In this document: one piece after another, positions 36,293 through 36,750 of the stretch
Numbering within the stretch: position 1 is the stretch's first letter
Layout: each line of letters opens with the position of its first letter
Source of the DNA: Flavobacteriales bacterium
GTDB lineage: Bacteria > Bacteroidota > Bacteroidia > Flavobacteriales_D > Sanyastnellaceae
NCBI GenBank assembly: GCA_002862785.1
Contig: PKDZ01000015.1
Span: 13,716-77,715, forward strand
DNA length: 64,000 nt
Reading direction: 5' to 3'
Made by a program: the position numbers and the translations under genes
The notes under the pieces: generated by a model
What the model saw: the letters and a program-made list of their open reading frames with translations, nothing else
What the model was told of the DNA's origin: nothing
Database searches by the model: none

Positions 36293-36430
36293 TCAGATGA
36301 GCTGACCGAGCAACAGGAGCAGGTCGGAGGTGCTGATCAAGCCATCTCCATTGAGGTCGTACATCTCGCTGGCCTTGGTCACCGGTTGCAACCAGTACTG
36401 CAACATGTTGAGCAAATCGTCGATTGTCAT
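36293..36430 (-). CDS. 45-aa micro-protein with a single EF-hand/dockerin-type Ca-binding loop (paralogue 1)
   Basis: Sequence MTIDDLLNMLQYWLQPVTKASEMYDLNGDGLISTSDLLLLLGQLI. It shares 31/45 residues with the ORF at 36613-36750, and similarity starts exactly at the ATG. 14 of the 31 conserved residues use different codons. Confidence 0.55.
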   Translation of the reverse strand: MTIDDLLNMLQYWLQPVTKASEMYDLNGDGLISTSDLLLLLGQLI

Positions 36431-36579
36431 GACGAACAAATTTTTGGACGCCGCAAAAATCACGGGCAAATTCAGCGATTGGGTTAATCCATGGTGGCAT
36501 TTGGAATAACCGAAAGGCAAAAACGGCCGACACAAAACAGGGGAATGCTGTCGAAACGTGAACTCCATGTGAAGCACCC

Positions 36580-36607
36580 GCGGGTTCAGGTCCTGCGGGG
36601 CGCAGCA
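36580..36607 (+). repeat. tRNA-Met 3'-half-like fragment (T arm + 3' acceptor strand + gCA); direct repeat of 36259-36286
   Basis: gcgggttcaGgtcctgcGgggcgcaGca against gcgggttcaAgtcctgcAgggcgcaCca gives 25/28 identical. The T-stem is intact. No D arm or 5' acceptor strand lies upstream. Confidence 0.7.
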
Positions 36608-36612
36608 TAGCT

Positions 36613-36750
36613 TCAGCCGAGCTGGCCGAGAAGCAAAATGAGATCGGACGTCGTGATGATGCCGTCCCCATTGAGGTCATAAGCCAAGCTGGCCTTTGTC
36701 ACGGGCTGCATGAAAAACGAGAGGAGGTTGAGGAGATCGCTGAGCGACAT
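36613..36750 (-). CDS. 45-aa micro-protein with a single EF-hand/dockerin-type Ca-binding loop (paralogue 2)
   Basis: Sequence MSLSDLLNLLSFFMQPVTKASLAYDLNGDGIITTSDLILLLGQLG. Same length and same position relative to a tRNA-like 3' half as paralogue 1. An AT-rich stretch lies upstream on the minus strand. Confidence 0.55.
   Translation of the reverse strand: MSLSDLLNLLSFFMQPVTKASLAYDLNGDGIITTSDLILLLGQLG

What the first reader, a model, noticed from the sequence alone, without database searches (positions are those of the whole stretch)
36293..36750. Tandem pair of free-standing 45-aa single-EF-hand/dockerin-loop micro-proteins inside a tRNA cluster
Two minus-strand ORFs of exactly 45 codons (ATG 36430 and ATG 36750) encode these peptides:
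- MTIDDLLNMLQYWLQPVTKASEMYDLNGDGLISTSDLLLLLGQLI
- MSLSDLLNLLSFFMQPVTKASLAYDLNGDGIITTSDLILLLGQLG

**Evidence that they code.**
- 31/45 residues are identical and most replacements are conservative.
- 14 of the 31 conserved residues use different codons (for example L6 ttg/ctc, P16 ccg/ccc, Y24 tac/tat, G28 gga/ggg, L40 ttg/ctt). That is the signature of purifying selection on a protein.
- Similarity begins exactly at the shared ATG. The upstream parts of the 94-aa and 82-aa track ORFs are unrelated.

**What the peptides look like.**
- D-L-N-G-D-G-[LI]-I-x-T-S-D fits the canonical 12-residue EF-hand/dockerin calcium loop (D1, N3, D5, G6, I8, D12) and is followed by a Leu-rich helix.
- The N-terminal DLLNxL helix looks like the helix of a second dockerin half-repeat that lacks its loop.
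- There is no signal peptide, no fused catalytic or cargo domain, and no cohesin-like or maturation gene nearby.

Dockerin/EF-hand modules normally sit as appendages on large secreted proteins. I do not know of a described family of stand-alone half-dockerin peptides. Function is unknown; Ca-dependent homo- or heterodimerisation into a two-loop module is one possibility.
Basis: partly seen in the sequence, partly recalled or inferred. Interest (0 to 1): 0.7.

Follow-up and report, generated by a model that had tools for sequence, protein, structure and literature searches.

The report
Free-standing 45-residue half-dockerin calcium-loop proteins
Two real, conserved 45-codon genes in an uncultured marine Flavobacteriales genome each encode one dockerin-type calcium-binding loop between two leucine-rich helices, an unusually small free-standing version of a known module whose function is still untested.

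Summary
Two minus-strand 45-codon ORFs (36293-36430 and 36613-36750) share 31/45 residues, 14 of them through different codons.

They are real genes:
- 25 distinct orthologous coding sequences were examined. 22 come from species-level Flavobacteriales MAGs. All start with ATG and run exactly 45 codons.
- Median dN/dS is 0.12.
- In every locus whose held DNA reaches the neighbours, the gene sits in the same slot: tRNA-Arg(cct), tRNA-Val(cac), gene, convergent tRNA-Met(cat), RNase R.

The invariant residues are the calcium-ligand positions of a dockerin/EF-hand loop. The N-terminus is the tail of a lost first loop plus its helix, so "half-dockerin" is accurate. Copy A passes Pfam Dockerin_1; copy B does not.

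The tandem pair is found only in this species-level lineage; 22 other species have one copy.

An exhaustive HMM search found no other free-standing single-loop relatives. The same helix-linker-loop-helix unit does occur as 3-6 repeats in larger proteins.

My best mechanism is inferred, not shown: calcium-driven folding and pairing of two chains into a two-loop, four-helix module.

Verdict: a new variant of a known kind, of moderate interest.

The parts
36293..36430 (-). Copy A: 45-codon gene (stop included), MTIDDLLNMLQYWLQPVTKASEMYDLNGDGLISTSDLLLLLGQLI. Helix 3-20, Ca loop D25-D36, helix 34-44.
   Evidence: - ORF and translation.
- Pfam Dockerin_1: 25.2 bits, above the 22.9 cut-off.
- AF2 model: pLDDT 85.9.
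- Closest orthologue is L008, with dN 0.085 and dS 0.32.
- Kept with 1 amino-acid change in sister contigs L033-L036.
36613..36750 (-). Copy B: 45-codon gene (stop included), MSLSDLLNLLSFFMQPVTKASLAYDLNGDGIITTSDLILLLGQLG.
   Evidence: - ORF and translation.
- Dockerin_1: 18.6 bits, below the cut-off.
- Orthologues L013 and L027 have dN 0.01-0.02 and dS 0.35-0.45.
- The protein is identical in L033-L036 despite 2-4 nucleotide changes.
36579..36607 (+). Orphan 3' fragment of tRNA-Met (T arm, acceptor 3' strand and degenerate CCA), lying directly downstream of copy B. A relic of the event that created the pair.
   Evidence: - 26/29 identical to 36258-36286.
- It carries different, additional substitutions in sister contig L033, so it is decaying rather than conserved.
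36210..36286 (+). Intact tRNA with CAT anticodon, convergent with copy A. The gene's stop codon lies 6 nt from the tRNA's CCA end.
   Evidence: - ARAGORN and Rfam.
- The same convergent arrangement, with a 5-13 nt gap, is seen in all 23 single-copy loci.
- The tRNA sequence is identical in 8 other species.
36801..36830 (-). Promoter-like region of copy B: TTGATT (36830-36825) and TATTATATTG (36810-36801). It aligns with the Bacteroidetes-type -7 box TAnnTTTG of orthologues. The match here is inexact.
   Evidence: - Upstream alignment.
- An exact TAnnTTTG lies in sense orientation in 12 of 25 upstream regions, against 1.9 expected from shuffles and 0 in antisense. There is no exact match for winA or winB.
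36431..36578 (-). Upstream region of copy A (between the tRNA fragment and ATG 36430). No promoter identified.
   Evidence: - No detectable homologue outside sister contigs L033-L036.
- About 88% identical to those contigs, compared with 97-99% for the coding sequences.
36928..37183 (+). tRNA-Val(cac) and tRNA-Arg(cct), the conserved upstream neighbours on the opposite strand.

Best explanation
**What it is.** Each ORF is a real gene for a 45-residue protein. Most orthologues carry their own promoter-like box upstream. The protein is acidic (net charge -3 to -5) and very leucine-rich (47-49% hydrophobic residues). It is a single dockerin-type calcium module with this layout:
- helix 1, which is the tail and exit helix of a lost first loop;
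- a conserved FMQPVTK linker;
- one complete 12-residue Ca2+ loop (D25-x-N27-G-D29-G30-x-I32-x-x-x-D36);
- helix 2.

**Shown:**
- coding status and purifying selection;
- fixed 45-codon length;
- conserved position beside the CAT-anticodon tRNA across a family-level clade of high-GC marine and estuarine Flavobacteriales;
- dockerin/EF-hand-type loop homology;
- no domain fused to it.

By inspection I see no Sec-type signal peptide either; that was not tested with a predictor.

**Inferred mechanism.**
1. One loop flanked by two hydrophobic helices cannot bury its surface alone.
2. Ca2+ binding therefore folds the loop and drives two chains to pair through the invariant position-8 Ile. EF-hands and the two halves of a dockerin always pair this way.
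3. The result is a two-loop, four-helix module. It would be a homodimer in most species, with an A/B heterodimer also possible in this lineage.
4. This module acts as a small Ca2+-dependent binding or sensing unit for a partner not yet identified.

**How the second copy arose.** It came from a recombination or integration event at the 3' end of the tRNA. A fragment of that tRNA marks the event.
For: **Coding**
- 25 distinct coding sequences all have ATG, 45 codons and a stop.
- Median dN/dS is 0.12, and variation peaks at codon position 3.
- Both paralogues stay intact in four sister contigs, while the spacer between them diverges about 12%.

**Own gene**
- A Bacteroidetes -7 box TAnnTTTG lies upstream in sense orientation in 12/25 loci, against 1.9 expected.
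- No gene follows on the same strand.

**Module identity**
- Invariant columns are D25, N27, G28, G30, I32 and D36, with D29 nearly invariant. These are exactly loop positions 1, 3, 5, 6, 8 and 12.
- Dockerin_1 hits 18/19 members and EF-hand_6 hits 17/19.
- The best PDB sequence hit is the dockerin 2y3n_B at 1e-5, followed by EF-hand proteins.
- The AF2 model is helix-loop-helix with pLDDT 85.9.
- The complete dockerins of P0043 align to profile positions 2-45 and share the QPV linker and GQxG tail.

**Pairing**
- Hydrophobic residues make up 47-49% of only 45 residues.
- The position-8 Ile is invariant.
- From established knowledge: isolated EF-hand peptides, such as troponin C site III, homodimerise on Ca2+ binding, and EF-hands and dockerin halves occur in pairs.
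- The same unit occurs in 4 copies in P0053 and 6 copies in P0049. That is at most weakly suggestive.

**Origin of the pair**
- The window's flanks are 87-96% identical to the one-copy genome L027. The copy A segment is closest to L008, at 89.7%.
- dS between A and B is 1.3, yet the tRNA fragment is still 26/29 identical.
Against: - No Ca2+ binding, dimerisation or expression data exist. Multimer modelling could not be run here.
- Foldseek matches of the model were all non-significant (E>2).
- Loop position 12 is Asp, not the bidentate Glu of canonical EF-hands. All EF-hand Pfam scores are below their cut-offs.
- Copy B is below the Dockerin_1 cut-off.
- Free cytoplasmic Ca2+ in bacteria is generally sub-micromolar (established knowledge). 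A low-affinity dockerin-type site might therefore be empty inside the cell.
- No partner protein is known.
- The promoter boxes of the two window copies are only near-matches.
- Some multi-unit relatives do not have an even number of units. P0057 has about 5 and P0077 has 3.
Confidence: 0.5

Rival explanations
1. A monomeric mini-dockerin. The single complete F-hand and its helix bind a cohesin-like or other partner protein encoded elsewhere in the genome, in a single-binding mode. The 45-residue protein then acts as a plug, adaptor or competitor rather than as a self-pairing Ca2+ switch.
For: - Copy A passes Pfam Dockerin_1, and the alignment covers profile positions 14-54 of 57.
- The nearest full-length matches are true two-loop dockerins (P0043).
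- Truncated dockerins in Ruminococcus flavefaciens have been proposed to work through a single binding mode (PMC2930009).
- The highly conserved FMQPVTK linker and the T/S residues at loop positions 10-11 could form a recognition surface.
Against: - No cohesin or other dockerin lies in the 64-kb window.
- By inspection there is no signal peptide, whereas cohesin-dockerin systems are extracellular.
- Whole genomes could not be scanned.
- A 45-residue, 47% hydrophobic monomer is unlikely to be stable alone.
Confidence: 0.25
2. A leaderless exported peptide. It is made without a signal peptide and exported by a dedicated transporter. It folds only outside the cell, where seawater Ca2+ is about 10 mM. 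There it acts at the cell surface or between cells.
For: - It is small, acidic and amphipathic, with a Ca2+ loop that would be saturated only outside the cell.
- The multi-unit relatives (P0049, P0053, P0055-58) also lack recognisable N-terminal signal peptides by inspection.
Against: - No transporter or maturation gene is linked. The neighbouring MatE-like gene is separated from it by two tRNAs and lies on the other strand.
- There is no leader or cleavage motif.
- There are no PHROG, PADLOC or bacteriocin-like hits.
- The context of P0053 is uninformative.
Confidence: 0.08
3. The locus works mainly at the RNA level. The transcript runs antisense through the convergent CAT-anticodon tRNA, which lies 5-13 nt beyond the stop codon. 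It modulates that tRNA or its precursor, and the peptide is secondary.
For: - The convergent arrangement, with no room for a terminator, is kept in all 23 single-copy loci.
- The tRNA is 100% identical across the species checked.
Against: - The substitution pattern is that of a protein, with dN/dS 0.12 and position-3 variation.
- Invariant residues map to Ca2+ ligands.
- Conserved synteny within one family-level clade is expected anyway.
- There is no Rfam match.
- The orphan tRNA fragment after copy B is decaying.
Confidence: 0.05
4. Not functional genes: chance ORFs in GC-rich DNA, or a decaying C-terminal remnant of a larger dockerin-bearing protein.
For: - Many spurious ORFs of this size exist in this 63.6% GC window.
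- The module is an N-terminally truncated dockerin.
Against: - The ATG, the 45-codon length and the stop are conserved in 25 distinct sequences.
- dN/dS is 0.12.
- In-frame upstream extensions are not conserved.
Confidence: 0.02

Closest known systems
Type I dockerin modules of cellulosomal enzymes (Pfam PF00404; e.g. PDB 2y3n_B, 1ohz_B)
   Same: - The Ca2+ loop D-x-N-G-D-G-x-I-x-x-x-D has Asp at position 12 and is followed by a Leu-rich helix.
- The N-terminal T-L-S-D-L-L-x-L-L segment is the end of a first repeat.
- Copy A scores above the Pfam cut-off.
   Different: - It has only one complete loop instead of two.
- It is 45 residues long instead of 60-70.
- It is free-standing rather than appended to a secreted enzyme.
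- No signal peptide is seen by inspection.
- No cohesin partner is known.
- The host is an aerobic-type marine Flavobacteriales rather than a cellulolytic anaerobe.
Truncated (group 2) dockerins of Ruminococcus flavefaciens FD-1 (PMC2930009)
   Same: These are dockerins lacking part of the duplicated segment, proposed to act through a single binding mode.
   Different: They are still C-terminal modules of larger secreted proteins in a cellulosome system. They were not compared residue by residue here.
Isolated single EF-hand peptides (e.g. troponin C site III) and small dimeric EF-hand proteins (S100, calbindin D9k, polcalcins)
   Same: - They have a helix-loop-helix with a 12-residue loop, Gly at position 6 and Ile at position 8.
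- The top Foldseek and PDB sequence neighbours after dockerins are S100A1, calbindin D9k, calmodulin and polcalcins.
- Ca2+-driven pairing of single EF-hands is established for peptides (own knowledge).
   Different: - Position 12 is Asp rather than Glu.
- A Pro-containing linker separates helix 1 from the loop.
- Pfam EF-hand scores are below their cut-offs.
- The structural matches are not significant.
- Natural EF-hand proteins carry at least two hands per chain.
Multi-unit 'LLADWG-x5-YDLNGDG-x5-DLLxLL' repeat proteins from metagenomes (P0049, P0053, P0055-P0058, P0062, P0066, P0077)
   Same: They have the same one-loop unit: a loop-less helix, a short linker, then an F-hand. An example is LTIDGLLAAWGTNNPMYDLTGTGVVDVGDLLALLGML in P0053, compared with copy A.
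   Different: - They have 3-6 units per chain, joined by long Pro/Glu/Thr linkers, in proteins of 300-550 residues.
- They are uncharacterised.
- They are not from the Flavobacteriales clade as far as can be seen.
Free-standing complete dockerins of 67-92 residues in metagenomic catalogues (P0134, P0142, P0159, P0164, P0187)
   Same: They are small proteins consisting of little more than a dockerin.
   Different: - They have two loops each.
- Some have a signal peptide (P0187).
- Some may be gene fragments.
- None shows the conserved 45-residue format.

Membership tests
Dockerin type I (Pfam PF00404) | Score at or above the Pfam gathering cut-off (22.9 bits) | tested here: inconclusive
   Copy A scores 25.2 bits (passes). 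Copy B scores 18.6 bits (fails). 18 of 19 family members hit at E<=0.01.
Dockerin type I (Pfam PF00404) | Two tandem ~22-residue segments, each with a 12-residue Ca2+ loop and a helix | tested here: not met
   Only one complete loop is present (residues 25-36). Residues 1-5 correspond to positions 8-12 of a first loop whose positions 1-7 are absent. Pfam aligns residues 5-42 to profile positions 14-54 of 57. In-frame upstream sequence is not conserved.
Dockerin type I (Pfam PF00404) | Module of a larger secreted or surface protein with a signal peptide | tested here: not met
   All 25 genes are exactly 45 codons from a conserved ATG. The N-terminus MTLSDLLNLL is acidic and amphipathic, with no signal-peptide features by inspection. 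No predictor was run.
Dockerin type I (Pfam PF00404) | A cognate cohesin partner in the same organism | not testable with these tools
   None was found in the 64-kb window. Whole genomes of the clade could not be scanned.
EF-hand (Pfam PF00036 / PF13405) | Helix-loop-helix with a 12-residue loop: ligands at positions 1, 3, 5 and 12, Gly at 6, hydrophobic at 8 | tested here: met
   D25, N27, G30, I32 and D36 are invariant and D29 nearly so. AF2 gives helix 3-20, a loop, and helix 34-44. Position 12 is Asp, the dockerin type, not Glu.
EF-hand (Pfam PF00036 / PF13405) | Score at or above the Pfam gathering cut-offs (25-25.4 bits) | tested here: not met
   The best scores are 20.9 bits (EF-hand_6) and 19.8 bits (EF-hand_1).
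EF-hand (Pfam PF00036 / PF13405) | Two paired hands in one chain | tested here: not met
   There is one loop per 45-residue chain.
EF-hand / dockerin (both) | Binds Ca2+ | not testable with these tools
   This needs ITC, CD or NMR on the peptide.
GC-type dockerin (NCBIfam NF041540) | Score at or above the curated cut-off (29 bits) | tested here: not met
   Copy B scores 12.8 bits. Copy A has no hit.
RiPP precursor / bacteriocin-like peptide | Linked maturation, immunity or export genes, plus a leader or cleavage motif | tested here: not met
   The neighbours are tRNAs, RNase R, a MatE-like protein and a sulfotransferase. There is no Cys and no double-glycine leader. There are no PHROG or PADLOC hits.

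The most novel reading that the evidence does not exclude
The family may be the smallest natural free-standing Ca2+ switch. It would be an obligate self-pairing half-dockerin that folds and dimerises only when Ca2+ is bound, and that serves marine Flavobacteriales as a minimal Ca2+ sensor or adaptor. In the lineage of this window, a laterally acquired second paralogue would add a heterodimer.
Probability: 0.25. Interest if true: 0.6.

Novelty: new variant of a known kind. Interest (0 to 1): 0.4.

Why it matters
If the peptide binds Ca2+ and pairs, it would be a natural minimal form of the dockerin/EF-hand module: one loop, two helices and 45 residues.

- **Evolution.** It would bear on how two-loop Ca2+ domains arose from single hands by dimerisation followed by duplication.
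- **Protein engineering.** It would give a compact, genetically encoded, Ca2+-gated dimerisation tag.
- **Small-protein annotation.** It is a clean example of a sub-50-codon gene that is truly conserved. It lies in a tRNA cluster, where gene callers often mis-extend it. Database entries give it as 52-89 residues with unrelated N-termini.
- **Ecology.** The family occurs on many marine and estuarine contigs; one 90% cluster alone is on 75 contigs. Its role is unknown.

Tried and rejected
- **Foldseek of the AF2 model against PDB**. It returned only EF-hand proteins, all with E>2, so it is not usable as evidence.
- **AF2 of the four-unit relative P0053 without an alignment**. This was meant to show whether units pair. 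The model had pLDDT 38.7 and gave no information.
- **Genomic context of P0053**. It showed nothing informative, such as linked secretion genes.
- **Literature searches** for stand-alone, single or truncated dockerins and for bacterial single EF-hand proteins.
  - No described family of this kind turned up.
  - The only relevant statement found was on truncated R. flavefaciens dockerins.
  - Peer et al. 2009 on non-cellulosomal dockerins is not held.
- **Other libraries.**
  - Rfam gave nothing but tRNAs and sub-threshold noise in 35500-40000.
  - PHROGs, PADLOC and IMG/VR gave no relatives.
- **Longer reading frames** (the 94- and 82-aa ORFs, and database forms of 52-89 aa). Rejected because the upstream parts are unrelated between copies and species.
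- **Coding on the opposite strand.** Rejected because its third positions would be the least variable columns.
- **Recent in-situ tandem duplication.** It is less likely than acquisition or recombination, for three reasons:
  - dS between A and B is 1.3.
  - Copy A is closest to a different species (L008) than the flanks are (L027).
  - The tRNA fragment is barely diverged.
- **The 398-aa amidase P0198** listed in the cluster of P0002. It has no such module and is a clustering artefact.
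Full report
**1. The observation**

Copy A runs from ATG 36430 to the stop at 36293-36295. Copy B runs from ATG 36750 to the stop at 36613-36615. Each has 45 codons.

A recount gives 31/45 identical residues, 14 of them encoded by different codons. The 44 nucleotide differences split 15/8/21 over codon positions 1/2/3.

A DNA alignment of the two copies shows no similarity upstream of the ATG. The similarity continues past the stop codon into a 29-nt copy of the 3' end of tRNA-Met (T arm plus acceptor strand). 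This copy lies at 36579-36607 and is 26/29 identical to 36258-36286.

The tRNAs are all on the plus strand, opposite to the ORFs:
- Met(cat) at 36210-36286
- Val(cac) at 36928-37006
- Arg(cct) at 37109-37183

**2. They are genes**

- *Homologues.* Searching 5.8 billion proteins with each peptide returned only short proteins of 43-79 aa, in about 45 clusters at 90% identity. Their common core is always the same 45 residues, and the N-terminal extensions are unrelated to each other.
- *Species range.* A scan of one genome per species found the gene in 22 species-level MAGs. Twenty are named Flavobacteriales or Crocinitomicaceae, one is filed only as Bacteroidota, and one as 'uncultured bacterium'. 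One of the Flavobacteriales-type contigs is filed under a Nitrosopumilus MAG.
- *Gene structure.* All 25 distinct coding sequences (22 species, one metagenome contig, and the two window copies) start with ATG, run 45 codons and end in a stop.
- *Selection.* Pairwise NG86 estimates give median dN 0.19, dS 1.3 and dN/dS 0.12. Summed column entropy is 25.4/10.5/48.7 for codon positions 1/2/3. This rules out coding on the opposite strand and rules out a purely RNA-level constraint.
- *Synteny.* In every locus whose held DNA reaches the neighbours, the order is tRNA-Arg(cct), tRNA-Val(cac), the 45-aa gene on the other strand, a convergent tRNA with CAT anticodon, then RNase R. The stop codon is only 5-13 nt from the CCA end of the tRNA.
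- *Promoter.* Upstream, 12 of 25 loci carry an exact Bacteroidetes-type -7 box TAnnTTTG in sense orientation. Shuffles predict 1.9, and the antisense strand has none. Most of the other loci have one-mismatch versions at the aligned position. The two window copies have only near-matches.
- *Host.* The window itself is Bacteroidota. It has 63.6% GC and contains SprB-repeat and CHU_C type IX secretion cargo genes.

**3. What the protein is**

- *Conserved residues.* In the family alignment the invariant columns are M1, D5, L6, L7, L10, Q15, V17, K19, Y24, D25, L26, N27, G28, G30, I32, T34, D36 and L37. F13, M14, T18, D29 and L41 are nearly invariant. D25, N27, D29, G30, I32 and D36 are positions 1, 3, 5, 6, 8 and 12 of the dockerin/EF-hand Ca2+ loop.
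- *Pfam.*
  - Dockerin_1 matches copy A at 25.2 bits (cut-off 22.9), aligning residues 5-42 to profile positions 14-54 of 57.
  - Copy B scores 18.6 bits, below the cut-off.
  - EF-hand models score 15-21 bits, below their cut-offs.
  - Across the family, 18/19 members hit Dockerin_1 and 17/19 hit EF-hand_6 at E<=0.01.
- *NCBIfam.* It has no model for the family.
- *Internal repeat.* Read directly from the sequence, residues 1-14 (M-T-L-S-D-L-L-N-L-L-S-F-F-M) repeat residues 32-45 (I-T-T-S-D-L-I-L-L-L-G-Q-L-G). The protein therefore begins at position 8 of a first loop whose first seven residues do not exist.
- *Structure.*
  - AlphaFold2 with the family alignment gives helix 3-20, a loop, and helix 34-44 at mean pLDDT 85.9.
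  - Foldseek against PDB lists only EF-hand proteins (S100A1, calbindin D9k, calmodulin, polcalcins), none significant.
  - A profile search of PDB sequences puts a dockerin first (2y3n_B, 1e-5), followed by EF-hand proteins. Only the loop and the exit helix are aligned.
- *Composition.* The peptides are 47-49% hydrophobic, with net charge -5 (A) and -3 (B).

**4. Wider relatives**

An exhaustive HMMER search of 1.84 billion representative proteins gave 647 hits at E<=0.001.
- Among the best 150, every hit shorter than 100 aa with a single matched stretch belongs to this Flavobacteriales family.
- The other short hits are complete two-loop dockerins.
- The top hit, P0043, carries several full dockerins. 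Their second half aligns to profile positions 2-45 and shares the QPV linker and the GQxG tail.
- A set of uncharacterised proteins contains 3-6 copies of exactly the same one-loop unit, separated by Pro/Glu/Thr linkers. These are P0049, P0053, P0055-58, P0062, P0066 and P0077. An example unit is LTIDGLLAAWGTNNPMYDLTGTGVVDVGDLLALLGML. By inspection they have no N-terminal signal peptide.

The unit is therefore a recurring module. What is special here is that it stands alone.

There are no relatives in IMG/VR, PHROGs or PADLOC. No other dockerin-like segment or cohesin is in the window.

**5. The pair**

Only the window and four closely related metagenome contigs (L033-L036) carry two copies. 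All 22 other species carry one.

In the sister contigs, copy B is identical in protein despite 2-4 nucleotide changes. Copy A differs by one residue. The 182-nt spacer is only about 88% identical. Both copies are therefore maintained.

Several results bear on how the pair arose:
- The window's flanks on both sides are closest to L027 and L013 (87-96%), which carry only a B-type gene.
- The segment containing copy A is closest to L008 (89.7%), which carries only an A-type gene.
- dS between A and B is 1.3, against 0.32-0.45 to their respective orthologues.
- The tRNA fragment beside B is still 26/29 identical to the tRNA. It is accumulating different substitutions in L033.

The simplest reading is inference. 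Copy A arrived by recombination or site-specific integration at the 3' end of the tRNA. This displaced the original 3' end, which is now a decaying relic. A recent in-situ duplication fits less well.

**6. Mechanism**

*Shown:*
- It is a conserved, selected gene. Most orthologues have their own promoter-like box.
- The product is a 45-residue acidic, leucine-rich helix-linker-loop-helix protein.
- Its conserved residues are those of a dockerin-type Ca2+ site.

*Inferred:*
- EF-hands, and the two halves of a dockerin, function in pairs, and isolated EF-hand peptides homodimerise when they bind Ca2+ (established knowledge). A 45-residue chain that is nearly half hydrophobic cannot bury its surface alone.
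- I therefore think the most likely mechanism is Ca2+-driven folding and pairing of two chains through the invariant position-8 Ile. This would give a two-loop, four-helix module that then binds an unidentified target.
- In this lineage an A/B heterodimer is also possible.

I give the whole statement 0.5. That is about 0.9 for the gene and module part, and about 0.45 for pairing.

*Rivals:*
- A monomeric mini-dockerin that binds a cohesin-like partner in a single binding mode, as proposed for truncated R. flavefaciens dockerins: 0.25.
- A leaderless exported peptide that folds in Ca2+-rich seawater: 0.08.
- A mainly RNA-level role, antisense to the tRNA: 0.05.
- A non-functional ORF: 0.02, effectively excluded.

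**7. Comparison with known families, and verdict**

The protein works like a dockerin or EF-hand loop. It fails defining features of both families:
- *As a dockerin:* it has one loop instead of two, it is not part of a larger secreted protein, and no cohesin is known.
- *As an EF-hand:* it scores below the Pfam cut-offs, it has one hand per chain, and position 12 is Asp.

No curated family (Pfam, NCBIfam) describes it, and no paper in the held library does. IMG auto-labels some members 'Ca2+-binding EF-hand superfamily protein', and GenBank MAG records call them hypothetical.

I rate it a new variant of a known kind. It is a free-standing, one-loop, 45-residue form of the dockerin/EF-hand module, restricted to one clade of uncultured Flavobacteriales.

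Interest is moderate, at 0.4. The domain is familiar, however, and function rests on inference until Ca2+ binding, oligomeric state, expression and partners are measured.

Noticed in passing
window 36579-36607 (+): An orphan 29-nt copy of the 3' end of the CAT-anticodon tRNA (T arm plus acceptor strand) lies just downstream of copy B. It is 26/29 identical to the intact tRNA and is decaying differently in sister contig L033. It looks like the displaced end left by an integration or recombination event at a tRNA 3' end, but the 'insert' is only about 320 bp and carries no integrase.
   Followed up: partly
window 36210-36286 (+): ARAGORN calls this tRNA Met(cat). It is 100% identical in 8 other species checked. 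From my memory of the E. coli sequences, its T loop (GGTTCAAGTCC) and anticodon arm resemble tRNA-Ile2 (lysidine) more than elongator tRNA-Met. This was not tested with an identity model.
   Followed up: no
L023 (CAXQGL010000060.1): This 148-kb contig has the full Flavobacteriales synteny (45-aa gene, tRNAs, RNase R), yet it is deposited as part of a Nitrosopumilus sp. MAG. It is probably a mis-binned contig.
   Followed up: no
proteins P0049, P0053, P0055-P0058, P0062, P0066, P0077: These are uncharacterised 300-550-aa proteins. They are built from 3-6 copies of the same one-loop unit ('LLADWGKxDSxYDLNGDGTVxxxDLLxLL') separated by Pro/Glu/Thr linkers. They have no obvious N-terminal signal peptide, and some share similar C-terminal tails (...LSVVG, ...VSVVA, ...VNMVG). 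The context of P0053 was uninformative, and its single-sequence AF2 model failed.
   Followed up: partly
protein cluster of P0002: A 398-aa protein, P0198, named N-acetylmuramoyl-L-alanine amidase, is listed in the same 90% cluster as the 56-aa form of copy A. It contains no such module. This is an apparent clustering artefact.
   Followed up: yes
window 5157-10274 (+) and 14139-18125 (-): These are two very large type IX secretion cargo genes. One is 1705 aa with SprB repeats and a CHU_C domain. The other is 1328 aa with a NIDO-like domain and a CHU_C domain. They confirm a Bacteroidota host. Neither carries a cohesin or a dockerin.
   Followed up: partly
window 37206-39433 (+) and L001-L036: A MatE-like (Wzx/MATE-type) membrane protein gene and a sulfotransferase gene follow the tRNA-Arg in the window and in the metagenome contigs with called genes (L001-L005, L033-L036). 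In the window the two longest ORFs overlap by 88 bp (38420-38507). No functional link to the 45-aa gene is evident.
   Followed up: no
database entries P0002, P0010-P0024, P0029, P0033, P0037, P0047, P0050-P0052: Gene callers often extend the 45-codon gene upstream to 52-89 codons. The N-termini they add are unrelated between species, which is a systematic mis-annotation of the start.
   Followed up: yes
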